A DNA stretch of 64,000 nucleotides from Candidatus Thorarchaeota archaeon (GCA_003345595.1 PRDI01000058.1:15983-79982); one strand, 5' to 3'; shown: positions 11,295 to 25,254, counted from the first letter of the stretch. The notes: generated by a model not told the origin, from the letters alone. A program made the numbers and translations.

Positions 11295-12098
11295 CTATCC
11301 TACTTTCTGCCCACAGTTGTTGCAGAACTTCGCCCCCGCAGGAAGAGGCTGGCCACAGTTCGAGCAGAAACCGCCGCGGCCGCCACCGCCGCCTGTAGTC
11401 TTGAATGTGATAGTTGAGCGGTCAGGCTGTCCTCCACGTCCCGATCCGGTGCTAGTGATCGTGAAAGATCCCTGTCCTTCGTCGCCGCCCCCGGTCACCG
11501 TGACTGTTTCATCCCCACTGGATCCTCTCTGCGCACCACCGCCGCCACCTCCTTGTAGAATGGCTCCACATTGAGCACATGAAGATCTTCCGCCTGATGG
11601 AGCGCCGCAGTATGGGCACTTGCCTTGGTCTTGGGCCGCTGAGATATTTGCTATGATCGCAGAGATCACCTTAGGCTGCTTGAACTCGAATCTCATATCT
11701 CCTCCTGACTTCAGGGGAAGTATCAGTCTGTTCCCAGACATCTGCGCCTGCGAAACCGCAACTATAGGGATGGCCATACTCTCGGCGTTGCCTTTGGCAT
11801 CCTTGTTGATGAACGAGTCGTGTGTCCATGAGGAGATGGCAGTATACACGGCTGCAGCACCAACACCGCGCCCTACACTCTTGATTGCGTGTCCCCCAAT
11901 GCCTCCCACACGTGAACCGACTCCTTCGAGCAAGGCTGCGCCAGCGACTGCGCCGGCAAAGGCACCAAACTTCTTGAGGCCTCCGCTCTTGCTGGGTTTC
12001 TTATACCAGACGAGCCTCACATCAGTCAGCTCGAGGATTCCATCTTGTCCCTCGAACTTGACATCGTCTTCACGGATCATTTTCTTCTCATAACCCAT
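11295..12098 (-). CDS. Hypothetical protein: PH/GRAM-like N-terminal domain with Gly/Ala-rich insert and two zinc ribbons
   Basis: GILELTDVRLVWY resembles the GRAM/PH GxLxLTxxRLxF strand pair. CPYCG..CAQCG and CSNCG..CNNCG ribbons are separated by a Gly-rich linker. Confidence 0.65.
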   Translation of the reverse strand: MGYEKKMIREDDVKFEGQDGILELTDVRLVWYKKPSKSGGLKKFGAFAGAVAGAALLEGVGSRVGGIGGHAIKSVGRGVGAAAVYTAISSWTHDSFINKDAKGNAESMAIPIVAVSQAQMSGNRLILPLKSGGDMRFEFKQPKVISAIIANISAAQDQGKCPYCGAPSGGRSSCAQCGAILQGGGGGGAQRGSSGDETVTVTGGGDEGQGSFTITSTGSGRGGQPDRSTITFKTTGGGGGRGGFCSNCGQPLPAGAKFCNNCGQKVG

Positions 12099-12252
12099 GG
12101 TCGAAAGTCCAGAGTCAGAGAATGAAACGCTCATGAAACCTGGTCGCTCTGACAGATGATATCACCACAGAGGCGGTCAGTACGTAGCAATAATAAGCTT
12201 GCTAGCTGGCAGCCTCTGTCGGCCTGCAATCTTGGTGCGTGCTTGACTGACT

Positions 12253-13737
12253 TCAGTCGCCGGTTTTTTCTCTCATTGCTGGTCCGATTGCAGTTTCGGT
12301 AGGCTGAGATACTTGTGGCTGGCGTCGCACAAGAGCTTCGTCACCCGTCACTGGGAGCGGGTACTTGAGGCCTTTCGATATCATGATCACGCCCATGAGG
12401 GATACAATCCCACAAGACACAAGGGTCAACGGGAAGCCCCAGCGTGGGATGAGCCAACCAAAGAGCGCAATCTGCGGCATCGCTATGATTGTTCCCAAGG
12501 CAGGCTGCAACGAGTACATGCTGTTCCTGATTCGGTTGGGGATAGCGTCAATCAGGATGCGCTGAGTCAGGATTTCAGCGAACCCTCCGAAGAAGCCTGT
12601 CACTGTGAAGGTAATGAACATGAATGCTACGGGAAGTACAGTGCTTGGTGGCAGCCTCAGTATCACCAGCTGAGTGAACGGGAAGAAGATATCGATGGTC
12701 GGCGTCCCTACGGCGGCCGGTGGAAGCAGATACATGATTGCGGCGAACAGGAGGAAGAAGACAGTTCCGCACATCTGAACAAGCCTGAAACGCGGGATCC
12801 ACTTTTTGGGCTCGAACTTCCTTGACCAAATCCCAGACCGTTCCTGGGAGGCAACCCCTGGAATGAACAACAGAGTCCTGAATAGAGCAACGGCTACGTC
12901 AGTCGCCAAATAGGCGTAGTACATGGGAAAAAGTATCAGATTTCCCCACACGAGGATGCTGCTCGCTGTGACCATCGTGCCTATCATCACATACTTCACA
13001 AACGGCTCGCTGAAGATGTAGCTGACGCCTGCCTTTAGAAGCGAGCCATATTCCCCGAACGATGGTCTCTTCTGTCGGCTGGCTTTGACCTCTGGCAAGT
13101 CCTGTACTAGAACGAGGACGGAGGCCGCTATCAAGACGCACAGAATTGCTTGCAGCTGAAAAACCCAAGATCTACCGAACATGACCGCCATAAGAGAGCC
13201 AGGCAGAAGAGCCACAGTCGAAACAATCTGGAAGAGCATCCCGATCCTTCCCTGCATGACTCCGTACTGTTTCCTGTCCACATCGTTCGGCATGGCAACT
13301 CTGTAGTTGTTGTCAAACCAAGCTCCCCAAGCTCCGCTCTGTTGGGCATCGGCAGCGCCGTTTATTGCGTAAATGAGAACCAAGAGCAAGTATGGCGTAG
13401 TAACGTTGACCAGTGAAACAAGGTAGAACGTCAGGCCGTATAGCGCGAATGAGAGTGAGATGATGTATCTCTGGCCGATCCAGTCTCCCACTGCTCCTGT
13501 CGGATAGTCGAGCACTGTCTGTACGGCCATCTGTATCACGATCAACGTCCCGATGAGAGCCATTCCTTGGATGTAGTCCCCTCCGCCCAAAGCTGTCGCT
13601 ATGAAGATGACATAGAATGTTGTCGAGAAGGTGACAGTTGCTGCAATCAGAGGGAGGAAGATGGACATGACTCTGGCCATTCTCAATATTGAGTCAGGTG
13701 CATCTCTTAGTCCAAAGAACCTCGAGTTGCCGGTCAT
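12253..13737 (-). CDS. MFS transporter
   Basis: About 12 TM segments; motif-A-like GAVGDWIGQRY. Confidence 0.85.
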   Translation of the reverse strand: MTGNSRFFGLRDAPDSILRMARVMSIFLPLIAATVTFSTTFYVIFIATALGGGDYIQGMALIGTLIVIQMAVQTVLDYPTGAVGDWIGQRYIISLSFALYGLTFYLVSLVNVTTPYLLLVLIYAINGAADAQQSGAWGAWFDNNYRVAMPNDVDRKQYGVMQGRIGMLFQIVSTVALLPGSLMAVMFGRSWVFQLQAILCVLIAASVLVLVQDLPEVKASRQKRPSFGEYGSLLKAGVSYIFSEPFVKYVMIGTMVTASSILVWGNLILFPMYYAYLATDVAVALFRTLLFIPGVASQERSGIWSRKFEPKKWIPRFRLVQMCGTVFFLLFAAIMYLLPPAAVGTPTIDIFFPFTQLVILRLPPSTVLPVAFMFITFTVTGFFGGFAEILTQRILIDAIPNRIRNSMYSLQPALGTIIAMPQIALFGWLIPRWGFPLTLVSCGIVSLMGVIMISKGLKYPLPVTGDEALVRRQPQVSQPTETAIGPAMREKTGD

Positions 13738-14046
13738 TCTGTATTCAGTCCCCCAATCATGCTTCGGAAGGCCGAGTCATGCTGCAAGAACCGTGAATCA
13801 AAGCGTGCCAGTTTCGCATGTGTCATCATTCAGGTGTTCTCCTAGTTCGACTTCGCGATCTCTCGGGGTGCGGCCCCCGCAATCACACTGCAGGGACCGC
13901 TGCTGAGAGAGTAGGTATGTTTAGCCGTCCATCGGTTACCATGGTTGTCGAGAGGCTCTGCTTCTTGCCGAGTGTCAGGGCTTCCAGCGGTTTCATCGAA
14001 CCGGTCAGCCGGGAATCGGAAGAGTGCGCCGAGTCTACTCAACCAT

Positions 14047-14158
14047 GTCACCTTGTTTTGGTTTGGACTGGTCACTTGATATGCTACTGATGGTCTACAG
14101 TGCTCATTCAAGTGACCACTTGTGGTCACTCTAATACAAGTCGTGTGGTCAAGGTGAC
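14047..14158. repeat. Nested/competing inverted repeats built on a GTCAC/GTGAC core
   Basis: GTCACCTTG 14047-14055 / CAAGGTGAC 14150-14158; GGTCACTTGA 14070-14079 / TCAAGTGACC 14108-14117; AGTGACCAC 14111-14119 / GTGGTCACT 14122-14130. Confidence 0.7.
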
Positions 14159-14612
14159 CTGCTGAAGAGGCTGGCTCGCCTTTGCGCCCCACGCGGTAGT
14201 TGTTGGAACAAACCATGCTCACTGCTTCGTTGTTCACAGCCTCTACCTCATGGTGGCATAATGGTTTGGTGCTGACACCATTTAAATACTACACTGTTGA
14301 CGCAATAAACCATTGATGATGGGACCTTCGCACACAGGTGCACATCCAACGGACTAGGATTGACGAACTGAAGGTGAGATACCTGCTGAGTCCTTGCGTC
14401 GGGAATACTTAACGATAAAGCGACACCGTAGCCTTTCACAAGAATTTCATCATTGGTACCAATAAAAAGCGCAGCCACATCATGGGGTCACGTGTTGAGG
14501 TCGCTTCATGTTACCGGTCACGCAGGCAGGGGTGTAGGTGTGCGACAGTCAAAGATATTACGAAGCTGATTCAGAACCTGCAGTATCAACTAACGACAGG
14601 AGACAGGTCAGG

Positions 14613-15494
14613 ATGGATATCAAGAAGATTGCCGTGCTTGGCGCAGGCCAGATGGGCAACGGTATAGCTCATGTCTGTGCTCAGTCAGGCTATGAAGTCA
14701 AGATGCGAGATATAGAGCAACAGTTCCTCGACAAGGGCCTTGCAACGATAAAGGGAAACCTAGACCGCATGCTGAAGAAGAGCAAGATTACTCAGGTGGA
14801 CGCGGATGCAACATTGCGTCGCATAAAGTGCGTTCTCGACCTTAAGGAGGCCGTGAAGGACGCTGATCTGGTCATTGAGGCGATTCCCGAAATAGTCAAG
14901 CTGAAGTTGGACACTTGGAAGGACGTGGACGCTGCCGCCCCTGCCAGCGCCATATTGGCGTCGAACACTTCGAGCATCAGTATCACCCAAATGGCGGCTG
15001 TAACAAAGCGGCCTCAGAAGTTCATAGGCATGCACTTCTTCAACCCAGTGCCTGTCATGGGACTTGTTGAAATCATTAAAGGGCAAGCCACCGACGACGC
15101 AACTGTCGATGTGATAAAGGCTGTCGCGACTAAGGTCGGCAAGCAGACAGTCGTTGTTAAGGAAGCGCCAGGGTTCGCAGTCAATCGATTGCTGGTGCCC
15201 GCTTTGAATGAGGCTGTCTTTGCGATTCAGGAAGGCATCACGACAGTTGAAGACATGGACCTAGCCATCAAGCTCGGGTTGAACTGGCCAATGGGTCCGC
15301 TGACACTTCTTGACTTCGTGGGTCTAGACACGGCATTGTACATCGCCGATTATTTCGTGGACGAGTTCAAGGACAGCAAGTACAGGGCACCTGCCTTGTT
15401 GCGCAAGATGGTGCGTGCAGGATGGCTGGGCAGGAAGTCCGGAAGGGGCTTCTATGACTACTCAACCAATCCTCCCAAGCCGGGTAGGTTCTAA
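14613..15494 (+). CDS. hbd: 3-hydroxybutyryl/3-hydroxyacyl-CoA dehydrogenase
   Basis: GAGQMG NAD-binding motif, ASNTSS, GMHFFNPVP, PGFAVNRL, PMGPLTLLDFVGLD, GRKSGRGFY. Start moved to ATG 14613. Confidence 0.95.
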   Translation: MDIKKIAVLGAGQMGNGIAHVCAQSGYEVKMRDIEQQFLDKGLATIKGNLDRMLKKSKITQVDADATLRRIKCVLDLKEAVKDADLVIEAIPEIVKLKLDTWKDVDAAAPASAILASNTSSISITQMAAVTKRPQKFIGMHFFNPVPVMGLVEIIKGQATDDATVDVIKAVATKVGKQTVVVKEAPGFAVNRLLVPALNEAVFAIQEGITTVEDMDLAIKLGLNWPMGPLTLLDFVGLDTALYIADYFVDEFKDSKYRAPALLRKMVRAGWLGRKSGRGFYDYSTNPPKPGRF

Positions 15495-15502
15495 GAGTAA
15501 TC

Positions 15503-15534
15503 TGGGGCGGCCAAGCTAGCGAGGTTCGCCCCTC
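15503..15534 (+). terminator. GC-rich hairpin 9 nt after the hbd stop (copy 1 of a repeated element)
   Basis: TGGGGCGGCC...CGCCCCTC; GGGGCG/CGCCCC stem. Both arms recur at 53085-53121. Confidence 0.4.
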
Positions 15535-15971
15535 CTAGCTCCAGCTGGAGTTGAAGCTCTGGATACTTGCGGCTGTTTCTCTTCACTTACTCGAACTTCA
15601 ATCATATGCTGACACACATGACATATGAACTCATCAGAACTTGTCCATTGTATATCCTCCGGGGTAATTGGTTCACTGCAATAAGACCAAATCACGAAGG
15701 AAGATTTTGATCTAGTTCTCGAACGCGCTTGGGAATCAATGTCTTTCCCACCTGCTCCATCAATCCCATCCCTTCTAGGCTGACATTGGCGCCTCATGAG
15801 AATCAGCAACACAAGTAGCTACATTCCCAACATGACACGCCAAAGCACGAAAAACGGTTGCAGTAGAGGTATCATTCAGACAGCGGAGAGGATTGGAAAC
15901 ACAAGGAGCAATACGAGAGTCAATGCAACGATCACCGAATCAACTGTCTTGCTTCCTGCTTGCTCTCCCAA
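15516..15971 (-). pseudogene. Decayed 2-TM plus zinc-finger membrane protein
   Basis: One frame from TTG 15971 reads LGEQAG...VIVALTLVLLLVFPILSAV*MIPLLQPFFVLWRVMLGM*LLVLLILMRR...IWSYCSEPI...FICHVC. It has two in-frame stops (TGA 15878-15876, TAG 15821-15819) and Trp at the first expected Cys. Confidence 0.5.
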
Positions 15972-16119
15972 CTCACCTAACTGAAGACCCTTTCATTCGA
16001 AACGTAATAGGCCTGCGTTCTTCTGTTTTGTCTATTCATGCACAACCGTCATGAAACAGAATTGAACACTTGCACACATCCATCGTGAAAGGTGTTAGAC
16101 ACTGCGACAGATGTCTGTT

Positions 16120-19100
16120 TCATTTCGTGAGCTCTTCTTCTCTGAGCTTCTTCTTGAAGAGTTTCATTGCCACAGTCAGAGGCAGCTCATCTCTGAATTC
16201 TACCCATTTTGGCACGGCATATGGCTTCACTCTCTCCTTCAGGTATTCGATGATATCCTGCTCTGAAACTTTACCTCTATATTCAGGTTTCAGCTGGACA
16301 AAAGCCTTCACCCTTTCACTTCCAGGTCTTTCAGAATCAGGAACCCCTATCACACCTGCAACATCGACGGCTTCGTGTGTGTGAAGGATGTCATCAATGA
16401 CCCTACTGTACACCTTGTTACCCGAAACATTGATCATGTCTTTTAGCCGGTCTACTATTCTGAAGTAGCCGTCACTATCCATCTCGACAATATCGCCCAT
16501 AGGCAACCATCCGCCCTCTCTTAGTCCACTTCCAGGAGTTGGGAAGTACCCCTTCATGACCTGCGGTCCACGGATCCAGATTTCTCCTCGCTCGTTAAGC
16601 GGAAGCTCTTTTCCAGTTTCGGGATCGACGATTTTGACCTCTGTATCAGGTATGGGAATGCCGATGCCCCTCTTTGTTTCGGTCATGAAACCAGTGACCT
16701 TCGAGAGCGCTGACACGTTGATTGTTACGATTGCTGATGACTCTGTTGCGCCATAGCCTTCGCCCATGGGCACTCCCGTCTTCTTCTCAAACTCCGCAGC
16801 AAGATCGGCAGGGAGTGCCGCTGCACCTGAGTAATAGAATATCTGTCCCTTCTTCAGGTCCATCTTGCTCAGCATTGTATAGTGAGCTGGGACTGCGAAT
16901 ACAACGAAAGGACGTTGCTTGTTGATTATATCTGCAATCCTCGAGATGTCACGCGGGTCAACCAGGAATATCTTCATACCCCATGACACGCATGCATGCA
17001 CGGCCCAATGGCCGTACGCGTGGAAGATGGGCACACATATCAGACCTGCGCTCTTTCCGATGATTCCCTCCTTCAGAGGGTCCATCATCCATTGAATTGA
17101 CTGTATGACGGCACTTGTCAGATTGTAGTGTGTCAACAAGGTCCCTTTTGGAAGCCCTGTGGTGCCTCCCGTGAAGGGCAGCAGGGCGATATCCTCCTTC
17201 GGGTAGATTTCGACAACACCTTCATGCGGCTCGTGCTGTTCTATCAAATCATTGAGAAGGAAGTAGTTGTCATCATCAATCTGCTCTGTGTCAGGATATT
17301 CATAGTCTGGGAATACCCTTGTAGGGGTGTAGATAACGATTCTCACGCTCGTTTCGGGTTTGACTCGATTGATTCTTTCAAGACGTCTGGATGAGCATAC
17401 CACGATCTCAGCTCTACTCTCTTTGAGTTCATACAGCAAATCGTCGTCCTTGTGCATAATGCTTAGAGGTACATGAATCGCTCCAATCTTCATTGCTGCA
17501 TAGTCAGCTATTATGAATTCAGGACATGATGGAAGTACAGTGGCAATTGCGTCCCCCTTCTTCACACCAAGGGCTACGAAAGCTGATGCAAGCTTGTCAA
17601 CCTTCATTTTCAGCTCATGATATGTCAAATGCTCATCCAAGTACTCACATGCTTCAATATCAGGGAAATTCGTTGCAGAGTCCTCTAGAAACTTGTAGAC
17701 ATTTATCTCAGGATACGGAGCCATCGAATGCTTGAGTTTGAAAGGACCAATTTGGTAGCCACTCAACCACGGCTTGTCACCAAAGATTTCTGCCGATGTT
17801 CTAGATACTGCTGATGCCATCTCCTTTTCAGAAGTAGCCATCTGTTTTGTTTGTGCCCCCGTAGTTCCTCTCCCAAGATCCCCATATTCAGGGATCGAAT
17901 CAGCAACCCATGCAAGATCAAGTTCCTTTAGTTTTTCTCTCGAGGGTCTTCCTTGATGATCCCATCCGCGATACTTGTAGTATGCATCTAGGAGAACATC
18001 CAGTTTCACAACATGCCCCTTCGCTGGCCCTTCGGGCATTGGATCCTCTAGTAGTCGCGGAGGTAGACTGTCATCTCTTCGTCCAAACCCCTCCCTCAAA
18101 ATGTATGCCCTCTCCAGGTTATAGATTCTCTCACCTGTCTTGCGAAAGTCATCTGCAGAGAACTCATAGCCCATCAGTGTGGAAATCAGTTTCGCCCAGT
18201 CTTCGGCAGTGAGCACCATCCCCATGAACTTGCAGCCACCAATGGCGTCAAAGATGCCGAATGCATCCTCGAAGTTCTTGACGACTAATGCTATCTCTGG
18301 GATTTCCATTAGTGGATCGCCCACATCCGCATTCTCAACGATCATGAAAGGCATGGAGAGAAAAGCAGGTCCCTCAATATACGCTGTTATGTGATCTCCG
18401 CCTCGATTCGCAACAGCATAGGCAAGTCCCGTTATCTTGGCCGCTCTGCTGTCATAACCCGGGAGCTCTAGTCCCTTCACATGCATCGCGAATCTCTCAG
18501 ACCCATTACCTAGTTTCTCAGCCATCCTCATGGTCCCTTCAGCAAGGAGATTCCCTATTCCCTCACGTTTTCCAATCTTGTGAACAATGTCAACGATAAG
18601 TTGCGCATTTCCCCAGGAGAAGTCCATGCCACCAATGTCGTCGTCTTTCAGGATGCCGCGTTGTCTGCATTCCATGGCAAAGCCAACGCTATTGCCCGCA
18701 GAGATTGTGTCAATGCCATACTCATTGCACAGGAAGTGCGCGAGGGTGATGGCTTCTAGGCTGTCCACACCGCACATAGTCCCAAATGAGCTAATAGTTT
18801 CGTATTCCGGGCCCTCTCCCTTGCTCTTGAAAGGTCCCTCCTTGATTTCGGCAATCCTCCCGCAATGGATGGGACAAGCAAAGCAGGGCTTTCGTCTTAC
18901 TAGGATGCTATCATTGATTGCCTGCCCGTTGATTTTTTCTGCGTTCTCAAAAACGCCGGTCTGCCAGTTTCTGGTCGGGATGCCTCCCTTGACATTGACC
19001 AGGTCAACCATTGTAGCTGTGCCATAAACCTCTAGGGTCATCTTCAGAAGGCTTTGATTCACCCAGTCGAACCTTTGCTTTGCCTCCTGTCTGTATGCGT

Positions 19101-19755
19101 CTGGGTCTGCAATGGCGATTTCCAGAGTCCCCTTTGATGCTATTGCCTTCAGATTCTTTGAGCCCATGACCGCGCCAACGCCGCACCGTCCCGCTGCGCG
19201 ACCCCAGTTCTCCTCATCGCAGTCGTTCATGATTGCAGCGTACTTTACCAGATTCTCCCCTGCGATACCTATGCAAGCGACATTGAATTTGGGTCCGTGC
19301 CTCTCTCTGAGGATTCTAGTGGTTTCGGAGGTGTTCTTTCCCCATATCTTCCCTGCATCGAACAGCTCCGCCTTTCCATCTTCAGTGAGGAGGTAGACCG
19401 GACTTGGCGCTCTTCCTTCGAATATTGCACCATCAAAGCCGGAGCGTTTGAAATCTCTCCCCCAGAATCCTGCGGAATTTGCCTGGCCCCATCCATTCGT
19501 GAGGGGTGACTTTGTTACCACACTGTATCGTCCTGTGCTGGGCGAACTGGTGCCTGTAAGAGGGCCGGTCATGAAGATGAGCTTGTTCTCAGGACCAAGG
19601 GGGTCAATGCCTTTTTCAGTTTCCTCAAGTAGGATCTTGGTAGCTAGTCCGGCACCACCGAGGTATTTTCGTAAGGTTTCTTCATCAGGGAATTCCTCCG
19701 TTATTGTAGATGTAGTCAGATTGATGCGCAGGATCTTTCCCATGTAGCCATACAT
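16120..19755 (-). CDS. Fusion protein: tungsten aldehyde:ferredoxin oxidoreductase (N-terminal) + long-chain acyl-CoA ligase/AMP-binding enzyme (C-terminal)
   Basis: AOR motifs: AAGRCGVGAVMGSKNLKAI, CFACPIHCG, EYET, DTIS, RGGDH, DAIGGCKF. Adenylate-forming motifs: FTGGTTGLPKG, EGYGATE, RGPQVMKGY, GDI..D.DGYF.IVDRLKDMI, PLTVAMK. Single uninterrupted 1211-aa frame. Confidence 0.92.
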   Translation of the reverse strand: MYGYMGKILRINLTTSTITEEFPDEETLRKYLGGAGLATKILLEETEKGIDPLGPENKLIFMTGPLTGTSSPSTGRYSVVTKSPLTNGWGQANSAGFWGRDFKRSGFDGAIFEGRAPSPVYLLTEDGKAELFDAGKIWGKNTSETTRILRERHGPKFNVACIGIAGENLVKYAAIMNDCDEENWGRAAGRCGVGAVMGSKNLKAIASKGTLEIAIADPDAYRQEAKQRFDWVNQSLLKMTLEVYGTATMVDLVNVKGGIPTRNWQTGVFENAEKINGQAINDSILVRRKPCFACPIHCGRIAEIKEGPFKSKGEGPEYETISSFGTMCGVDSLEAITLAHFLCNEYGIDTISAGNSVGFAMECRQRGILKDDDIGGMDFSWGNAQLIVDIVHKIGKREGIGNLLAEGTMRMAEKLGNGSERFAMHVKGLELPGYDSRAAKITGLAYAVANRGGDHITAYIEGPAFLSMPFMIVENADVGDPLMEIPEIALVVKNFEDAFGIFDAIGGCKFMGMVLTAEDWAKLISTLMGYEFSADDFRKTGERIYNLERAYILREGFGRRDDSLPPRLLEDPMPEGPAKGHVVKLDVLLDAYYKYRGWDHQGRPSREKLKELDLAWVADSIPEYGDLGRGTTGAQTKQMATSEKEMASAVSRTSAEIFGDKPWLSGYQIGPFKLKHSMAPYPEINVYKFLEDSATNFPDIEACEYLDEHLTYHELKMKVDKLASAFVALGVKKGDAIATVLPSCPEFIIADYAAMKIGAIHVPLSIMHKDDDLLYELKESRAEIVVCSSRRLERINRVKPETSVRIVIYTPTRVFPDYEYPDTEQIDDDNYFLLNDLIEQHEPHEGVVEIYPKEDIALLPFTGGTTGLPKGTLLTHYNLTSAVIQSIQWMMDPLKEGIIGKSAGLICVPIFHAYGHWAVHACVSWGMKIFLVDPRDISRIADIINKQRPFVVFAVPAHYTMLSKMDLKKGQIFYYSGAAALPADLAAEFEKKTGVPMGEGYGATESSAIVTINVSALSKVTGFMTETKRGIGIPIPDTEVKIVDPETGKELPLNERGEIWIRGPQVMKGYFPTPGSGLREGGWLPMGDIVEMDSDGYFRIVDRLKDMINVSGNKVYSRVIDDILHTHEAVDVAGVIGVPDSERPGSERVKAFVQLKPEYRGKVSEQDIIEYLKERVKPYAVPKWVEFRDELPLTVAMKLFKKKLREEELTK

Positions 19756-19840
19756 GATGAAGTGGACCTCTTGCTATCTACGAAACGGGGTCATGCGCTT
19801 TTAAAAGCCTGATGTTCATCAAGGCGGGTGAGGCGCCCGG

Positions 19841-20125
19841 ATGAAGGTGAAAGTGAAATTCTTCGCGCATCTCAGTGAGCTCACAGGTAAGAAACCAGTA
19901 TTCGAGGTCGATGTTGAGGAGGGCGCCACCGTTTCCATGCTCTTGGACAGTCTACTCGTCGACCGGAGGATCAGGGATGCCCTGCTGGACGAGAACCAAG
20001 AGATCAGGTCCAATATAACTGTCCTCAAGAATGGCAGAGAGATAAAACTCCTGGCGGGAATGGAAACCAAGCTGAGTCATGGTGACGAGCTAGCTGTGTT
20101 TCCCATGCTTGTCGGAGGTCGATAA
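19841..20125 (+). CDS. moaD: MoaD/ThiS/SAMP family ubiquitin-like sulfur carrier
   Basis: MKVKVKFFAHLSELTG...ITVLKNGREI...GDELAVFPMLVGGR*. Divergent from the AOR fusion gene. Confidence 0.85.
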   Translation: MKVKVKFFAHLSELTGKKPVFEVDVEEGATVSMLLDSLLVDRRIRDALLDENQEIRSNITVLKNGREIKLLAGMETKLSHGDELAVFPMLVGGR

Positions 20126-20240
20126 GTGGTGCATCGAATACCCTAGACCCCTTCAAGCTCAATTTATCAGTAGGACATTCCTGTTACAAGAGCATTCAAT
20201 CGAATTACGATGACCAGTGCTATTCGAAGGATTGATCACT

Positions 20241-20690
20241 ATGCCGAGATTCATGTCAGCTGAATGGCTGAATCTATACAAGAATGCGCTCAACAGCAAC
20301 GATGCCTATGCAAGGGCTGCTTCGTGGTGGACTGGCGACTTCATTTTCGTTGTCAGGGCAAGCGGCAAGTTGGACCATGATATTTTTGCTTTCATCGGGT
20401 TGACTCACGGTAAGTGCACCGGTGTGAAGCCAATAAAGGGAGAAGACGAATACCAAGTTGTGAAACCTGGTGAGGGTGCGAGCAGTAAGGACAAGGTTGC
20501 CGTAGAGTATGTCTATGAGGCCAAGTATGATGCTTGGCTGAGAATCCTGAGAGGCGAGTTGGATCCTGTCCGCGGGCTTCTCAGCGGCCAAGCAAGAATC
20601 GTTGGAGATATGGCCAAGATTCTCAAGGCTACGGACGCTGCGAAGGAGCTAGTACGAACATCCACCCTGATCGACACGGAATTCTACTAA
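20241..20690 (+). CDS. SCP2 sterol/lipid-binding domain protein
   Basis: FMSAEW..Y...LN; WLRILRGELDPVRGLLSGQARIVGDMAKIL is a typical SCP2 C-terminal signature. Start moved to ATG 20241. Confidence 0.8.
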   Translation: MPRFMSAEWLNLYKNALNSNDAYARAASWWTGDFIFVVRASGKLDHDIFAFIGLTHGKCTGVKPIKGEDEYQVVKPGEGASSKDKVAVEYVYEAKYDAWLRILRGELDPVRGLLSGQARIVGDMAKILKATDAAKELVRTSTLIDTEFY

Positions 20691-20710
20691 AGACAACAAG
20701 GTGAAGTGTA

Positions 20711-21121
20711 ATGGATGAAGCAGCGCGGGAAATCCTCTTCCATACATTCAAGGCCGTAATAGAAGATGTCATTGCTGACAAGCGGAAGAATCCCAAGAAC
20801 ACCACGACTCTTGACGAATATCGAGCCAGGATAAACATAGGTCTGCATGTGGAAGAGGAATTCATATTGTGGGTGAATCTTGTTGCTGAAGGCGGCAAGT
20901 ATGTCGTCAACAAAGGAAAGCTTGATGACTACGATCTACAACTCATATCAGACCCCGAGGATATGATGTACTTCACTAACAGGAAATACTCAACGCTGAA
21001 GATGATGTTCACAAAGAACAGATTCGGAGAGAGAAGGCTGCTTTTCAGTGGAGGAACGTCTGGCAGAAACTACGGGAAACTGTTGAAGCTCCCCAAGGTG
21101 CTAGTCTTGGATGGCAAATAG
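20711..21121 (+). CDS. Divergent SCP2-like protein
   Basis: Helix, then beta sheet (WVNLVAEGGKYVVNKG..DYDLQLISDPEDM), then a helical tail matching SCP2 topology. Co-oriented with the SCP2 gene. Confidence 0.45.
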   Translation: MDEAAREILFHTFKAVIEDVIADKRKNPKNTTTLDEYRARINIGLHVEEEFILWVNLVAEGGKYVVNKGKLDDYDLQLISDPEDMMYFTNRKYSTLKMMFTKNRFGERRLLFSGGTSGRNYGKLLKLPKVLVLDGK

Positions 21122-21323
21122 GTGAAAAAGCCCTGTATAGAACCATAAACCCTCATAATGAGTAGTTGATTCGGCTGCAGGAGTTCTTGGAACCAACTCT
21201 GACTATCGCTGTGAGAACGACGTTTAGTTGGACGTGATGGGCCGACAAAACACAATACTAGGTGTCGAATACGAGAGTTGCATGCAAGAGTACTGGAGAT
21301 TCTCATGCTAACACACGGCATTC

Positions 21324-21570
21324 ATGGGAAGGTGGGGGACCTGTGGGCACATGCACAATGCTCACGTCAGGAACTGTTTACCTGCCGACGTGTCTGTCAG
21401 ACTCCTGAAGAAGATGGGAGCGGACATCACGTTCGTCTGCGGATCAGACACTCATGTTACTCTTCTCCTGACTGTAACAGAGGCCGCTGGTGTTAGTCAC
21501 AGAGAACTCTATGTAGAGTACCACGAGCACTACCTGGAGATCGTAGCCAGTTTCCCAATCTTAATAGCAG
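21324..21570 (+). pseudogene. Degenerate N-terminal fragment of methionyl-tRNA synthetase
   Basis: GHMHNAHVRNCLPADVSVRLLKKMGADITFVCGSDTHVT...GVSHRELYVEYHE follows the archaeal MetRS pattern G.xHxGH...YLPAD..xR.L...G.DV.F.CG.DEHGT...G.SP.E....YHE. Similarity ends after about 80 codons. Confidence 0.7.
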
Positions 21571-21579
21571 TGTTGCATC

Positions 21580-22443
21580 ATGTCCGGTCATGTGGTGCAG
21601 ATGAGGTACGAAGAGAGCAGCTACACAGGATACGATGGCATGCAGATGTTCATGTCGGTATGGACTCCCGACGACGAACGGCCCCGTGCTCTCATGGTAG
21701 CTATTCACGGGCTTGGAAGTCATGGGTCTGCTCTGACTAACGTCGGCGTCTATCTCAGTGAGCGGGGCATTGCAGTGTTCGCCCCTGACATGAGGGGCTT
21801 TGGTCACTATTCGGGACTGAAGGGGCACGTGATGAACTTCGATGAATACATCGAGGACATCGATAGCGTGGTGACTCAGGTCAAGATGATGCACCCGTCC
21901 AAGCTGACCTTCCTGTTTGGCCACTCGCTGGGGGGTCTTGAAGCGATAAGATATGTCACTACGTATCCCGGCGATGTCGATGGTCTGATTCTATCCTGCC
22001 CTGCGGTTTCTGAACATGTCGAGATCGGGAAGGCAACCAGAGTGGCGGGCTCATTCCTTTCACTACTAAACATTAAGCGATACTTCGGCTGGCCTACCCA
22101 GTTCCAGTACGCCTCACATGACCCAGACGTCGTTCAGGAGCATGAGAACGACGTGCTTAGGTTTGACAAGGTGACACCCCGACTTGGAATGTCTGCACTG
22201 AAAGCTACCCGCAAAGCGTTCGAGTCTGCATCCGGAATAGTGCTCCCAGTCCTTGTGCAGCAGGCGGGTGACGATGTCTTCGTTATACCTGAGAAGACCA
22301 AGTTGTTCTTCGACAGCATTGGTGGATGTGACAAGAGCTGGAAATTGTATGAGGGTCTCTATCACGAACTTCACAATGAAAATGCGAGGGAGCAGGTACT
22401 TGGCGACATGTACGCATGGCTTGAGAAGCGCCTGACGGGATAG
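21580..22443 (+). CDS. Alpha/beta hydrolase (monoacylglycerol lipase / lysophospholipase family)
   Basis: IHGLGSH, DMRGFG, nucleophile elbow GHSLGG, acid GDD, catalytic His YHELHNE. Confidence 0.92.
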   Translation: MSGHVVQMRYEESSYTGYDGMQMFMSVWTPDDERPRALMVAIHGLGSHGSALTNVGVYLSERGIAVFAPDMRGFGHYSGLKGHVMNFDEYIEDIDSVVTQVKMMHPSKLTFLFGHSLGGLEAIRYVTTYPGDVDGLILSCPAVSEHVEIGKATRVAGSFLSLLNIKRYFGWPTQFQYASHDPDVVQEHENDVLRFDKVTPRLGMSALKATRKAFESASGIVLPVLVQQAGDDVFVIPEKTKLFFDSIGGCDKSWKLYEGLYHELHNENAREQVLGDMYAWLEKRLTG

Positions 22444-22500
22444 TGAGAAATGGGATCCGAAGGTTTTGACAATCTAGTTCGGTCCAAAGAAAGGACGGCT

Positions 22501-25254
22501 CTAGCCTCTGCCGACCATGACCGGACGACTGTCATTCATGAATCCTTGTCTTCTCATGACGAGCTTTATGGCTTCTATTGAAAGGAAGGTAAACGCGCAG
22601 ACACCAAAGACTACTTCCACGCCAAGCAACCCGATTGGCACTAGTCCGAATGCGTTGGCTACAGCTGGGATGCTGAACAGCCCTATGGTGAGGGCTGCAT
22701 TCCCAAATACGGCCAGCCATAGCAGACGGTGCGGCCTCACTTCGAATACTGATCGCCTCAAGGAACGACATGTGATTGCCATCACAAGTTCAATGAATAC
22801 GAACAAGTAGAAGAGCACACTTCTCGCTTCAAGCAACTGAGGGCTGTTCTCCGGCGTGCCCAAGGGCACCATACTGGCGAAGATAAACAGGAAGAGAGGG
22901 CTTTGGACCAGAACGGAGATCAGATAGAACAGCTTCATATCCTTTGTGAATATGCTCTCCTTGGGACTTCTTGGAGGTCTTTCCATTATGTCGGGGTCTG
23001 CCGGGCTCAACCCAAGAGCGATTGCAGGGAATCCATCGGTGACGAGGTTTATGTAGAGAAGCTGAGCCGGCTCCAGCGGAAGCGGGTACCCCGCTAATAT
23101 GGCAACTGAGAGCACTATAATCTCAATCAGATTTGTCTGCAGTAGATATGCAAGGTACTTCTTGATGTTGTCGTAGATCCACCTTCCTAACTCAATGGCC
23201 TTTTCGATTGTTGCGAAGTTGTCATCTGCAAGTACGAGGTCGGCAGCCTCTTTCGTGACATCGGTCCCTGTGATTCCCATGGCAATACCGATGTCTGCCT
23301 GTTTTAGAGCTGGAGCGTCATTGACGCCATCGCCGGTCATCGCCACGACCTTTCCACGCTTCTTCCATGCTTTTACGATCTTCAGTTTGCGTATCGGCGA
23401 AACCCGCGCATAAACGGAAACATCCTCGACGATCTGTTCAAAGTCTTGATCGTCGATGCGCTCCATATCAGAATCCGTTAGGAACTTGTCACCCTCATTA
23501 TAGATGCCAACTTCGCGTGCTATGGCCACAGCAGTCAAAGCATGATCGCCAGTTATCATGATGGGCCTGATTCCCACAGATTTGCATACACTAATCGCCT
23601 TGACAGCTTCGGCGCGGGGCGGATCTATCATGCCAGCCAAACCCAGAAAGACTAGGTCCTTCTCAAGTGTTTCTTCACTCGAGTCATCGATCTGCGGCCC
23701 CTCTCGGTATGCCACAGCCAAGACTCTCAAGGCGCGCCTTGCCATCATCTCATTGGCTTGCAAGATTCTGCCTCTGGAATCGCTTCCCATGTCTTGAATT
23801 CCGCCAGATGCAAATTCCTTGGTGCAACGGTCAAGCACAACCTCCGGTGCTCCCTTGACGAAGACAAGCTTGCCGCCCTTCTCGCTATAATGCATTGTTG
23901 TCATGCGTTTTCTCTCGGAGCTGAAGGGAACCTCCCCTATCCTGGGGAAGGCACTTCTGATTTCGTGCACTTTGTGCCCAGACTTCTCGGCGAGAACAAT
24001 CAATGCTCCCTCTGTCGGGTCTCCCCTGATTCTCCATTTTCCATTCTCAATGACGAGGTCTGCATCATTGCACAGAACGCATCCCATGACAAACAACCTG
24101 AAACTATCACTGTTCAGGACACCGTCCGGGGCCAGAAGTCTGCCTGTGGGCTCATACCCTTCGCCCTCGACCGCCACCGTCGAGTCTGCAGCGTAAACCT
24201 CTCTAACAGTCATTTCTCCTTTCGTGATTGTCCCTGTCTTGTCAGAGCAGATGACAGTGGTGCACCCTAGGGTTTCCACAGCTGACATTCTGCGTACGAG
24301 CGCATTGGCATGCGCCATTCTATGCATACCTATTGCGAGACTTCCCGTCACGACTGCCGGCAGTGCTTCAGGAACGGCTGCCACTGCAAGAGCTATTCCG
24401 AAGAGTATCATTTCGAGGGCAAAGGCCGGACGGAACAGGCCGTACACTATGAAGTCCCTAAGTAGTCCCACGGCTATTACTGCAACGCATACACCCAGCG
24501 AGAGTGCACCAAGCCACTTGCCAATCTCCTTAGTCCGTTTCTCAAGAGGTGTTTCCTCTTTGTCCACGGTTGTTACTTGGCGCGCGATCTTGCCAAATTC
24601 AGTATTCATCCCAGTGGCAGTTACTACAGCAAGTCCCTTCCCATATGTCACTTCCGTGCCTGAAAGAACCAGATTCTTCCTGTCAGGGAGGGGGGTGTCA
24701 GGCTCAATCGTCTCTTCAGTCTTGGATACGGGCAACGACTCGCCAGTGATTGCTGCCTCGTTCACCTTGATGTTACAGACCTCAATGAGGCGCCCGTCCG
24801 CAGGAATCTTGTCCCCCTCTTTGAGCATGAGGATGTCACCAGGCACAACCTCCTTGGTAGGCACCTCGAGTGCTTGATTGTCACGTAGGACTGTTGTGCA
24901 AGGTGTAAGCATCTTCTGCAGTGCCAAGAGAGCCCTCTCCGCCCTGTATTCTTGCGTGAAGCCCAAGATTGCAGAGATGATAACGATCACCAGAATCAGT
25001 AAAGCATCTACGATCTCGCCGACAAGAAACGAGATCCCAACCGCAATGAGAAGTATGACAACGAGAGTTTCGGTGAACTGTCTGAGAAGTATCCTTAAGG
25101 GGCTCTCAGTTTCGGCTCTCATTAGCTCGTTTGGTCCATACTCTTGCAGTCTTTCAATAGCATCAGCGCGACCAAGACCTGCCCGGCTCGTACTCAGCTT
25201 CATCAAGACGGTCTGTGAATCTTGAGAGTGCCAAGCCTCTTCCGTTGATGTCAT
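22501..25254 (-). CDS. Cation-transporting P-type ATPase (type IIA, Ca2+-ATPase-like)
   Basis: TGES, PEAL, DKTGT, KGAPE, TGDGVND, NLVTD. Confidence 0.95.

What the first reader, a model, noticed from the sequence alone, without database searches (positions are those of the whole stretch)
14613..22443. Candidate lipid/fatty-aldehyde salvage system: lipase + SCP2 carriers + W-AOR/CoA-ligase fusion + MoaD + 3-hydroxyacyl-CoA dehydrogenase
Seen: hbd, the AOR-ligase fusion, and divergently moaD, SCP2, SCP2-like and a monoacylglycerol-lipase-like hydrolase, all within 8 kb. Established: SCP2 domains bind acyl-CoA and lipids, MoaD supplies sulfur for pterin cofactors of AORs, and Hbd acts in beta-oxidation. 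Inference: ester hydrolysis, carrier-bound long-chain aldehyde/acid, oxidation plus CoA activation, then beta-oxidation. No alcohol dehydrogenase is present in the cluster.
Basis: partly seen in the sequence, partly recalled or inferred. Interest (0 to 1): 0.72.

Follow-up and report, generated by a model that had tools for sequence, protein, structure and literature searches.

The report
Tungsten aldehyde oxidoreductase–CoA ligase fusion module
A Thorarchaeota genome fuses a tungsten-type aldehyde-oxidising enzyme to an acyl-CoA ligase, next to two lipid-carrier-fold proteins and a cofactor helper; this core recurs across Asgard archaea and anaerobic bacteria and probably turns greasy aldehydes into acyl-CoA, while the neighbouring lipase-like and Hbd genes are not conserved with it.

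Summary
Only four form a conserved unit.

**Conserved core**
- A 1211-aa AOR–AMP-ligase fusion.
- A divergent MoaD-like gene.
- An SCP2-fold protein (SCPa).
- A second, divergent SCP2-like protein (SCPb).

**Evidence from related loci**
- Across 37 Asgard loci with the orthologous ligase, an AOR lies directly upstream in 35.
- SCPa is within 1 kb in 33, SCPb is in the locus in 22, and MoaD is within 1 kb in 16.
- Hbd occurs only in this window. A weak Hydrolase_4 paralogue occurs in one other locus.
- The same AOR→ligase pair, mostly with SCPa and MoaD, occurs in Desulfobacterota, Bacillota and Chloroflexota.
- AOR and ligase trees are congruent.
- The fusion arose twice, in Thorarchaeota and in Hodarchaeota.
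- Relatives carry aldehyde-producing partners at the locus: Fe-ADH, a GMC oxidoreductase, or a class-III aminotransferase.

**Reading**
Most likely a hydrophobic aldehyde is oxidised to the acid, reducing ferredoxin, and the acid is then activated to acyl-CoA using ATP. Substrate and direction are inferred, not shown. I found no description in the searchable literature. I class it as a new variant of a known kind.

The parts
17911..19755 (-). AOR domain of the fusion (residues 1-615): tungsten-bispyranopterin and [4Fe-4S] aldehyde:ferredoxin oxidoreductase
   Evidence: Pfam AFOR_N and AFOR_C. Matches 1AOR at E 5.5e-164, 45% identity. CxxCxxxC plus the fourth Cys, the EGPEYE Glu, the GGDH His and the pterin-contact Asp residues all align with P. 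furiosus AOR. It belongs to a distinct ligase-linked AOR clade, SH-aLRT 100.
17791..17910 (-). Low-complexity linker between the AOR and ligase domains (about 40 residues)
   Evidence: Junction read in-frame without a stop. Linker sequence varies between species but the frame is kept. In split relatives this position holds the AOR stop codon and the ligase start.
16120..17790 (-). AMP-forming acyl-CoA ligase domain (FadD/4CL-like) of the fusion
   Evidence: Pfam AMP-binding and AMP-binding_C. Nearest NCBIfam models are long-chain-fatty-acid--CoA ligases, all below their cut-offs. Nearest PDB entry is A. fulgidus FadD-1, 3G7S, E 2e-60. Motifs TGGTTGLPKG, GYGATE, GD, DRLKDMI and the A10 Lys are present. 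AOR-linked ligases form one clade.
19756..19840 (.). 85-bp divergent intergenic region with a palindromic TTTTAAAA (19799-19806), a possible shared archaeal TATA element
   Evidence: Read directly from the sequence. Function is inferred only.
19841..20125 (+). MoaD/ThiS-family beta-grasp protein ending in GG plus one extra residue (R)
   Evidence: Pfam ThiS, TIGR01687 and SAMP1 above cut-offs. C-terminal GG in relatives. Within 1 kb of the AOR-ligase in 16 of 37 Asgard and 6 of 11 bacterial loci. MoaD-like genes in an AOR operon were read as W-cofactor maturation factors in PMC6365974.
20241..20690 (+). SCPa: 149-aa SCP2-fold protein (an alternative GTG start at 20217 would give 157 aa)
   Evidence: Profile A1 against 2CX7/1WFR gives E 8e-21. 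AF2 pLDDT 94 and Foldseek TM 0.77-0.89 to Thermus SCP2. Within 1 kb of the AOR-ligase in 33 of 37 Asgard loci and in 9 of 11 bacterial loci.
20711..21121 (+). SCPb: 136-aa protein of a small family found so far only in Asgard loci, probably a divergent SCP2 fold
   Evidence: Nine of 18 members hit Pfam SCP2 weakly, best E 9.5e-4. A distant member, P0401, passes the SCP2 threshold. The confident N-terminal 80 residues of a poor AF2 model hit mostly SCP2 structures. In the locus in 22 of 37 Asgard loci. Only 44 clusters among 1.84 billion representatives.
14613..15494 (+). hbd (3-hydroxyacyl/butyryl-CoA dehydrogenase): a neighbour, not part of the conserved module
   Evidence: Annotation confirmed. 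Convergent to the fusion with a 625-bp gap. Absent from all other loci examined.
21580..22443 (+). Hydrolase_4 alpha/beta hydrolase (monoacylglycerol-lipase/lysophospholipase-like): a neighbour, not part of the conserved module
   Evidence: Pfam Hydrolase_4, E 8e-61. Lies 458 bp after SCPb. The only other hit is 31% identity at another position in L045.

Best explanation
The real unit is a four-gene module: [AOR–acyl-CoA ligase fusion] with divergent [MoaD-like]–[SCP2-fold SCPa]–[SCP2-like SCPb].

**Proposed mechanism**
1. The AOR domain oxidises an aldehyde to the free carboxylic acid and passes two electrons through its [4Fe-4S] cluster to ferredoxin.
2. The ligase domain, tethered by a roughly 40-residue linker, adenylates that acid and forms the acyl-CoA (ATP to AMP + PPi). 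The product never leaves as free acid and can enter beta-oxidation or lipid metabolism.
3. SCPa, and in Thor and Loki lineages also SCPb, are soluble carriers. They hold a poorly soluble substrate or intermediate and present it to the enzymes.
4. MoaD serves maturation of the tungsten-pterin cofactor.

In relatives the aldehyde is made at the same locus by an Fe-ADH, a GMC flavoenzyme or possibly a class-III aminotransferase. In this Thorarchaeota genome that step is not encoded in the cluster. hbd and the lipase-like hydrolase are chance neighbours.

**What is shown:** gene content, domain integrity, conservation, co-evolution and two independent fusions.

**What is inferred:** the oxidative direction, hydrophobic substrates, channelling and the carrier role.
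For: 1. Catalytic and cofactor residues of both domains are intact.
2. Every ligase with at least 42% identity whose upstream DNA is on the contig, bar one (L063), has an AOR directly upstream: 35 of 37 Asgard loci and 10 of 11 bacterial loci. The other exceptions are cut by contig ends. Ligases below 40% identity have none.
3. Ligase-linked AORs form one clade (SH-aLRT 100), separate from seven paralogues in the same genome and from P. furiosus AOR. The ligase tree has the same groupings, so the pair is inherited and transferred as a unit.
4. Stop-codon loss fused the pair twice, in Thorarchaeota and in Hodarchaeota. The sister lineages have the two genes 40-120 bp apart, and in one Thor subclade they lie in the same frame.
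5. The gene order is always AOR then ligase, which is the order of the proposed reactions.
6. SCPa has an SCP2 fold and is adjacent in 33 of 37 Asgard and 9 of 11 bacterial loci.
7. Three non-homologous aldehyde-forming enzymes are recruited to the locus in different lineages. Fe-ADH occurs in Hod, Heimdall, Loki and Bacillota loci. A GMC oxidoreductase sits in a tight GMC-SCPa-AOR-ligase string in Desulfobacteraceae and Desulfatiglandales. A class-III aminotransferase occurs in 4 loci. A GMC flavoenzyme works oxidatively (general knowledge of the family).
8. The ligase is FadD/4CL-like, and more distant ligase relatives sit near hbd genes in beta-oxidation-type clusters in Nitrospirota and Alphaproteobacteria.
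9. MoaD-like genes in AOR operons have a published precedent as putative W-cofactor maturation factors (PMC6365974).
Against: - There is no biochemical or expression evidence.
- AORs are reversible in vitro and work reductively with ADHs in Pyrococcus and Clostridium (PMC12727526 title and abstract), so direction is not proven.
- Making acyl-CoA through AOR plus an AMP-forming ligase costs two ATP equivalents. A CoA-acylating aldehyde dehydrogenase would cost none.
- Substrate chain length or type cannot be read from the sequences. PDB neighbours of the ligase include feruloyl- and 4-coumarate-CoA ligases as well as FadD.
- SCP2-fold proteins of this family occur in 295 of 400 Asgard genomes, more than carry the pair. 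SCPa-like proteins are therefore not exclusive to this module.
- The module is patchy even within the genus: two of three other same-genus genomes gave no match.
Confidence: 0.6

Rival explanations
1. The Hydrolase_4 lipase releases a lipid moiety, SCP2 proteins carry it, the AOR-ligase makes the acyl-CoA, and Hbd is the dedicated beta-oxidation exit. All would be parts of one system.
For: All genes lie within 8 kb. The hydrolase is co-directional with moaD-SCPa-SCPb. The functions are thematically compatible. Alpha/beta hydrolases of other types occur near the module in L009 and L045.
Against: hbd is convergent and is absent from all 47 other loci. The hydrolase has no ortholog at the locus elsewhere, even in the same genus (L045); the only hit there is a 31% paralogue on the other side of the module. 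A 458-bp gap separates it from SCPb. The genome has a separate ligase+hbd pair on another contig.
Confidence: 0.08
2. Reductive, CAR-like operation. The ligase domain activates a fatty acid (as acyl-AMP or acyl-CoA). The AOR domain, driven by reduced ferredoxin, reduces it to the aldehyde. An ADH then makes the alcohol, either as an electron sink or to supply fatty or isoprenoid alcohols for lipids.
For: AORs reduce acids in vivo in Clostridium autoethanogenum and engineered Pyrococcus (PMC12727526 and PMC12094016, titles and abstracts). Acid reduction by ferredoxin is thermodynamically hard, and ATP activation would pull it. Fe-ADHs at the locus are reversible. A fusion of an adenylating domain with a reductase is the logic of carboxylic acid reductases (general knowledge).
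Against: No AOR is known to accept acyl-AMP or acyl-CoA. The AOR domain keeps the canonical AOR active-site residues rather than those of the CoA-ester-reducing BamB branch; BamB is only a distant hit at E 1e-65. The gene and domain order is AOR then ligase. GMC oxidoreductases in the bacterial versions are oxidative enzymes.
Confidence: 0.1
3. The same oxidative chemistry, but on soluble substrates. These could be lignin-derived or phenylpropanoid aldehydes (for example coniferyl or vanillyl types leading to feruloyl- or aroyl-CoA), or amino-acid or amine-derived aldehydes. The SCP2-like proteins would then have a scaffolding or other role rather than carrying lipid.
For: Feruloyl-CoA synthetase and 4-coumarate-CoA ligases are among the best PDB hits of the ligase. 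P. furiosus-type AORs prefer amino-acid-derived aldehydes (general knowledge). A class-III aminotransferase sits near the module in four loci. The hosts live in sediments rich in plant detritus.
Against: An SCP2-fold partner is almost universal at the locus. SCP2 structures are lipid binders (one search hit list). The nearest curated ligase models are fatty-acid ligases, and more distant relatives sit in beta-oxidation contexts. The GMC partner's nearest curated family is a sterol oxidase, though below its cut-off.
Confidence: 0.17
4. No functional link: AOR, ligase and small proteins are adjacent by chance, or by inherited synteny among close relatives.
For: Many of the loci come from related Asgard lineages. 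In the Loki genus the flanks are conserved housekeeping genes, which shows plain synteny.
Against: The pair is kept across two domains and at least five phyla with otherwise unrelated flanks. The trees are congruent and there are two independent fusions.
Confidence: 0.02

Closest known systems
Pyrococcus furiosus aldehyde:ferredoxin oxidoreductase (PDB 1AOR) and other single-subunit 'archaeal-type' AORs
   Same: Same three-domain fold family. 45% identity over the full length. Same [4Fe-4S] Cys ligands, the same catalytic Glu and His, and the same pterin contacts.
   Different: The window enzyme belongs to a separate clade that is always linked to a CoA ligase. It is covalently fused to that ligase and accompanied by SCP2-fold proteins. 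P. furiosus AOR groups instead with other paralogues of this genome.
AOR plus alcohol dehydrogenase two-step routes of anaerobes (Pyrococcus/Thermococcus; Clostridium autoethanogenum, PMC12727526)
   Same: An AOR is coupled to an Fe-type ADH, interconverting alcohol, aldehyde and acid with ferredoxin. Relatives of this module carry such an Fe-ADH at the locus.
   Different: Those routes have no dedicated CoA ligase and no lipid carrier, and they run reductively on short acids. Here a ligase is obligatorily attached and SCP2 proteins are present.
Aromatoleum aromaticum AorABC with aorD/aorE (PMC6365974)
   Same: A tungsten AOR operon that includes MoaD-like genes, read as W-cofactor maturation factors. 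Physiologically it is an aldehyde-to-acid step that precedes CoA activation in phenylalanine degradation.
   Different: AorABC is a three-subunit enzyme with FAD and poly-ferredoxin subunits that uses NAD+ or ferredoxin. The CoA ligase is a separate, unlinked enzyme, and there is no SCP2 partner.
FadD-type and 4CL-type acyl-CoA synthetases (A. fulgidus FadD-1, PDB 3G7S; feruloyl-CoA synthetase 8WEV)
   Same: ANL-superfamily fold with all core motifs, including the A10 lysine.
   Different: No NCBIfam equivalog or subfamily cut-off is reached: 358 bits against 476 for PRK06187. It forms a distinct AOR-linked clade and here is the C-terminal half of a 1211-aa protein.
Thermus thermophilus SCP2 TTHA0401/TT1886 (PDB 2CX7, 1WFR) and SCP2 domains that hand lipids to enzymes (UbiJ, alkylsulfatase C-terminal domains, SCPx/MFE-2)
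   Same: SCPa shares the fold (TM 0.77-0.89, 28% identity). Like those domains, it is encoded next to enzymes acting on hydrophobic substrates.
   Different: SCPa is a stand-alone protein partnered with a tungsten enzyme. It has a conserved HG[K/E/D]C motif of unknown role. A second, very divergent paralogue (SCPb) was found only in Asgard loci.

Membership tests
AOR family (tungsten bis-pyranopterin aldehyde:ferredoxin oxidoreductases) | AFOR_N plus AFOR_C domain architecture | tested here: met
   Pfam E 5e-77 and 3.8e-138, full profile coverage.
AOR family (tungsten bis-pyranopterin aldehyde:ferredoxin oxidoreductases) | Four Cys ligands of the [4Fe-4S] cluster (CxxCxxxC plus a distal Cys) | tested here: met
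   KPCFACPIHCGR and GGCKF align with P. furiosus AOR Cys288/291/295/494.
AOR family (tungsten bis-pyranopterin aldehyde:ferredoxin oxidoreductases) | Catalytic Glu313 and His448 and pterin-contact Asp residues of P. furiosus AOR | tested here: met
   EGPEYE, NRGGDH, GIDT and FDAIG align with the 1AOR counterparts. Residue numbering is from my knowledge of 1AOR.
AOR family (tungsten bis-pyranopterin aldehyde:ferredoxin oxidoreductases) | Contains tungsten and oxidises aldehydes with ferredoxin | not testable with these tools
   Needs metal analysis and an enzyme assay.
BamB-type (class II benzoyl-CoA reductase) branch of the AOR family | Closest similarity to BamB rather than to AOR sensu stricto | tested here: not met
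   4Z3W gives E 1e-65 over residues 2-428 only, against 1AOR at E 3e-163 over the full length.
ANL superfamily, AMP-forming acyl-CoA synthetase | Core motifs A3 (TGGTTGxPKG), A5 (GYGxTE), A7 (GD), A8 (DRxKD) and the A10 Lys | tested here: met
   All are present and invariant in alignment A3. They align with 3G7S.
ANL superfamily, AMP-forming acyl-CoA synthetase | Membership of a curated long-chain FadD family | tested here: not met
   The best NCBIfam model, PRK06187, scores 358 bits against a cut-off of 476. All others are further below their cut-offs.
ANL superfamily, AMP-forming acyl-CoA synthetase | Forms a CoA thioester from a defined acid | not testable with these tools
   Needs an assay.
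SCP2 sterol/lipid carrier fold (SCPa) | Sequence-profile and structural match to solved SCP2 proteins | tested here: met
   Profile against 2CX7/1WFR gives E 8e-21. AF2 pLDDT 94. Foldseek E 8e-12 with TM 0.77-0.89, and the next 20 hits are all SCP2.
SCP2 sterol/lipid carrier fold (SCPa) | Binds a lipid ligand | not testable with these tools
   Needs binding or co-purification experiments.
SCP2 sterol/lipid carrier fold (SCPb) | Sequence-profile and structural match to SCP2 | tested here: inconclusive
   The window copy has no hit. Nine of 18 relatives are weak (best E 9.5e-4). Distant member P0401 passes at 30.9 bits against 21.3. hhalign against SCPa gave nothing. The AF2 model is poor (pLDDT 58), though its N-terminal part hits SCP2 structures at E of about 3e-3.
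MoaD/ThiS beta-grasp sulfur carriers | Family HMM above its cut-off and a C-terminal Gly-Gly | tested here: met
   TIGR01687 scores 63 against 49.5, and SAMP1 scores 77 against 60. It ends ...VGGR, and relatives end ...GG. The extra residue would need trimming.
   hbd occurs in none of 47 other loci. The hydrolase occurs in one, as a 31% paralogue at a different position.
Conserved SCP2-AOR-ligase-MoaD module | Co-conservation, congruent phylogeny and conserved order of AOR, ligase and SCPa across distant taxa | tested here: met
   

The most novel reading that the evidence does not exclude
The fusion is a ferredoxin-dependent analogue of carboxylic acid reductase. The adenylating domain activates a fatty or isoprenoid acid. 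The tungsten centre reduces the activated acyl group to the aldehyde with reduced ferredoxin. The SCP2 pair hands the product on, to an ADH in relatives, to make long-chain alcohols, for example for ether-type lipids in Asgard archaea. This would be a new reaction for a tungsten enzyme and an ATP-driven way around the very low acid/aldehyde potential.
Probability: 0.08. Interest if true: 0.9.

Novelty: new variant of a known kind. Interest (0 to 1): 0.6.

Why it matters
Tungsten AORs are abundant in anaerobes. This genome alone has about eleven. The physiological substrates of most paralogues are unknown.

A clade that is always wired to a CoA ligase and an SCP2-fold protein, and that fused to the ligase twice independently, gives one paralogue a defined metabolic place: aldehyde to acyl-CoA with gain of reduced ferredoxin. 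It also points to water-insoluble substrates.

The module would give Asgard archaea, sulfate reducers, syntrophs and Chloroflexota an oxygen-independent route from long-chain alcohols or aldehydes into beta-oxidation. Such substrates could come from wax esters, ether lipids or hydrocarbon-derived alcohols.

The single-chain fusion is also a convenient object for testing substrate channelling between a tungsten enzyme and an ANL ligase.

For genome annotation, the result warns against building pathways from one genome's neighbours. Here two of the six genes do not belong.

Tried and rejected
- **SCPa versus SCPb.** hhalign of the two profiles gave no signal. SCPb's SCP2 assignment rests on weaker, indirect evidence.
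- **SCPb structure.** The AF2 model was poor (pLDDT 58, C-terminal 54 residues below 50).
- **Apparent extra fusions.** From 'open_frame_aa' I suspected extra fusions in Loki and other Thor genomes (G202, G173, G273, G338, G350). Fetching them showed two separate ORFs, because that column reads through stops. I count as fusions only matches that span the junction with no stops.
- **Loki-genus flanks.** These are housekeeping genes (PPDK, Trp/Tyr- and Phe-tRNA synthetases, ADP-forming CoA-ligase-like, HAD). That is plain synteny, not functional partners.
- **ABC-transporter ATPases.** They appear in six loci, but 5-9 kb away at varying positions, so I did not treat them as linked.
- **Bacterial flanks.** LarA, ATP-grasp, glycosyltransferases and GGDEF genes are not shared between phyla.
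- **Motif scans.** Rfam found nothing in 13500-23000. The sigma-70 and terminator scan was at or below shuffle expectation and does not apply to an archaeon.
- **Literature.** Searches for the fusion or operon (AOR with Thorarchaeota and fusion; with acyl-CoA synthetase, Asgard and SCP2; with sterol carrier protein; with CoA ligase, operon and fatty aldehyde) found no description. A 2025 review of tungsten enzymes mentions no fusion, ligase or MoaD. The library lacks most subscription journals, so this absence is not proof.
- **AOR-SCP2 fusion.** I looked for the fusion reported in an earlier AI note among five over-long AOR hits and found none. That claim remains untested here.

Full report
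**Observation**

| Gene | Coordinates | Strand |
|---|---|---|
| hbd | 14613-15494 | + |
| AOR–ligase fusion (1211 aa) | 16120-19755 | − |
| MoaD/ThiS-family | 19841-20125 | + |
| SCPa (149/157 aa) | 20217/20241-20690 | + |
| SCPb (136 aa) | 20711-21121 | + |
| Hydrolase_4 alpha/beta hydrolase | 21580-22443 | + |

The fusion carries AFOR_N and AFOR_C domains followed by AMP-binding and AMP-binding_C. The fusion and the moaD-SCPa-SCPb string are divergent across 85 bp, which contain a palindromic TTTTAAAA. hbd is convergent to the fusion, 625 bp from its stop. The hydrolase lies 458 bp beyond SCPb. The window is contig C58 of an 83%-complete, 2.73-Mb Thorarchaeota-type MAG that has about eleven AOR paralogues.

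**The parts**

*AOR domain.*
- It aligns end to end with P. furiosus AOR (1AOR, E 5.5e-164, 45% identity).
- It keeps the CxxCxxxC plus distal Cys cluster ligands, the active-site Glu and His, and the pterin-contact motifs.
- BamB (benzoyl-CoA reductase) is only a distant hit.

*Ligase domain.*
- It has all ANL core motifs, including the A10 lysine.
- Its nearest solved relative is A. fulgidus FadD-1 (3G7S), followed by feruloyl- and 4-coumarate-CoA ligases.
- It reaches no NCBIfam cut-off.

*SCPa.*
- It has a genuine SCP2 fold. A 26-sequence profile hits Thermus SCP2 (2CX7/1WFR) at E 8e-21.
- A pLDDT-94 model superposes on 2CX7 with TM 0.77-0.89, followed by a long list of SCP2 structures.

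*SCPb.*
- It belongs to a small family: 44 clusters among 1.84 billion representatives.
- It is probably a very divergent SCP2 fold, based on three indirect lines: half of its relatives hit Pfam SCP2 weakly, one distant member passes the threshold, and the confident part of a poor model hits SCP2 structures.
- It shows no direct profile similarity to SCPa.

*MoaD-like protein.*
- It passes the archaeal MoaD and SAMP1 models.
- It ends in GG plus one extra residue; its relatives end in GG.

**Which genes belong together**

The whole fusion finds about 45 clusters with the same four-domain architecture. All are from Thorarchaeota (77-91% identity) or Hodarchaeota (62-63%).

A junction-spanning query over 400 Asgard species genomes gives single, stop-free matches across the junction in 24 genomes of the window's family and 2 of another family. 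In many more genomes the AOR and ligase halves are adjacent but separate.

I fetched up to 10 kb either side of the pair in a spread of these genomes. I also ran a ligase-profile scan over 185,579 species genomes, and mapped the window's proteins onto all loci.

| Feature | 37 non-redundant Asgard loci | 11 bacterial loci |
|---|---|---|
| AOR directly upstream of ligase | 35 (one exception is contig-cut) | 10 (the exception is contig-cut) |
| SCPa | 33 within 1 kb | 9 |
| SCPb | 22 in the locus (13 within 1 kb) | 0 |
| MoaD | 16 within 1 kb | 6 |
| Fe-ADH | 8 in the locus (5 within 1 kb) | 2 |
| hbd | 1 (this window) | 0 |
| Hydrolase_4 | this window plus one 31% paralogue elsewhere in L045 | 0 |

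The ligase scan also showed that every homologue with at least 42% identity has the same AOR directly upstream (58-61% identical in most, 53-55% in the Chloroflexota loci), wherever the upstream DNA is on the contig. These include loci from Desulfobacteraceae, Desulfatiglandales, Desulfobacterales, a Desulfovibrio MAG, Bacillota/Syntrophomonadaceae and Chloroflexota. Ligases below 40% identity have no such AOR.

The Bacillota loci and the Hod/Heimdall loci share one layout: Fe-ADH and SCPa divergent from AOR-ligase-MoaD.

Other flanking genes are unrelated between lineages.

**Evolution**

- In a maximum-likelihood tree the ligase-linked AORs form one clade (SH-aLRT 100). This clade excludes seven paralogues of this genome and P. 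furiosus AOR, which groups with two of those paralogues.
- The Asgard sequences form a clade (SH-aLRT 100) beside the bacterial ones.
- The ligase tree repeats these groupings.
- Reading the junctions shows in-frame fusion in one Thorarchaeota clade and, separately, in two Hodarchaeota loci whose sister has separate genes.
- A Thor subclade has the AOR stop (TGA) and the ligase ATG eight codons apart in the same frame.

The pair is therefore an old operon that moved between domains as a unit, and its two genes fused at least twice.

**Mechanism**

The order AOR then ligase, the intact active sites, the repeated fusion and the constant SCP2 partner fit a two-step conversion. First, aldehyde to acid with ferredoxin reduction. 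Second, acid to acyl-CoA at the cost of ATP. The substrate would be poorly soluble and handed over by SCP2-fold carriers.

Three unrelated aldehyde-forming enzymes are recruited to the locus in different lineages:
- **Fe-ADH**, related to the ADH domain of AdhE.
- **GMC flavoprotein**, in a tight GMC-SCPa-AOR-ligase string. Its nearest curated family is a cholesterol oxidase, at 590 bits and below the 850 cut-off.
- **Class-III aminotransferase**, in four loci, on different sides of the cluster.

This convergence on aldehyde supply, together with the oxidative nature of GMC enzymes, favours the oxidative direction.

More distant relatives of the ligase sit 2-10 kb from hbd genes in Nitrospirota and Alphaproteobacteria. 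This fits a fatty-acid-type ligase lineage.

MoaD-like genes in an AOR operon have a published reading as W-cofactor maturation factors (PMC6365974).

None of this shows substrate, direction or channelling. Those are inferences.

**Rivals**

- **A reductive, CAR-like reading** (ATP-activated acid reduced at tungsten) is not excluded and would be the most novel outcome. There is no precedent for it. The active site is canonical AOR, and the GMC partners argue against it.
- **Soluble aromatic or amine-derived substrates** remain possible, because the ligase also resembles feruloyl/4CL enzymes. The near-universal SCP2 partner argues for hydrophobic ligands.
- **Chance adjacency** is excluded by the cross-domain conservation.

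**Known or new**

Full-text searches found no description of an AOR-CoA ligase fusion or of an SCP2-AOR-ligase operon. A 2025 review of tungsten enzymes does not mention one. The library is incomplete, so this is not proof.

After I had reached the cross-domain result, a look-up of earlier notes from this scan showed that other agents met the same module in Dehalococcoidia, an actinobacterium and a Heimdall archaeon, and read it the same way. These are unchecked AI notes and not independent evidence. One claim among them, an AOR-SCP2 fusion, I could not reproduce among five over-long AORs.

**Verdict**

- The core is a real, widely conserved and apparently undescribed variant of AOR-based aldehyde metabolism.
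- The lipase and Hbd are neighbours only.
- Interest is 0.6. Novelty class is new variant of a known kind.

Noticed in passing
not in the window; proteins P0052-P0112: Dozens of roughly 830-aa proteins fuse an AOR to a 3-hexulose-6-phosphate-synthase / OMP-decarboxylase-type barrel. They come from Nezhaarchaeota, Methanomethylicia, Thermoprotei and Hodarchaeales, and are 41-48% identical to the window AOR domain. They could be a formaldehyde-handling fusion.
   Followed up: no
window 22501-25254 (-); L013 11668-14061; L076 17169-19865: A P2-type cation P-type ATPase (40-42% identical between loci) lies 2-6 kb from the AOR-ligase module in Thor (this window), Hodarchaeota and Heimdall loci. This may be remnant synteny or coincidence.
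   Followed up: no
window 20241-20690, residues 56-59 of SCPa (HGKC): A Cys in the motif HG[K/E/D]C is nearly invariant in SCPa from Asgard archaea, Desulfobacterota and Bacillota. It is absent in the Chloroflexota copies. A thiol in a carrier that may hold aldehydes could form a thiohemiacetal; this is pure speculation.
   Followed up: partly
protein P0361: One SCPb homologue (387 aa) continues into a C-terminal stretch with several hydrophobic, membrane-span-like segments. It hints that SCPb may work at the membrane, or it may be a gene-calling run-on.
   Followed up: no
own genome G000:C108:814-3823 (L007, L144): A second, separate Fe-ADH (33-34% identical to the Hodarchaeota module ADH) sits 17 bp upstream of another AOR paralogue. 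This is a classical ADH-AOR pair without ligase or SCP2.
   Followed up: partly
own genome G000:C129:6422-9071: A stand-alone FadD-like ligase (33% identical to the fusion's ligase) is divergent from a second hbd paralogue (41%). This is a more typical beta-oxidation pairing than the hbd next to the fusion.
   Followed up: no
L050 10034-10083; L051 9893-9942: In a Thorarchaeota subclade (five species; junction read in two of them) the AOR ends in TGA. The ligase ATG follows eight codons later in the same frame, one stop codon away from the fused state. I did not test whether read-through occurs.
   Followed up: partly
L050 12942-14243; L051 14215-15534; L061 14680-16056; L062 12642-14012: A class-III (omega-type) aminotransferase lies 0.6-2.6 kb from the module in Thor-split and Hodarchaeota-family loci, on different sides of the cluster. 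It could supply aldehydes from amines.
   Followed up: partly
window 21122-21579: A 458-bp stretch between SCPb and the hydrolase has no convincing ORF (a 138-aa ORF at 21324-21740 overlaps the hydrolase start) and no Rfam hit.
   Followed up: partly
protein P0098: An AOR homologue carries a twin-arginine (TAT) signal peptide, which implies export of a tungsten AOR.
   Followed up: no
window 11295-12134 (-): A 279-aa ORF has two CxxC...CxxC zinc-ribbon-like motifs separated by long Gly-rich stretches. It was not scanned against any library.
   Followed up: no
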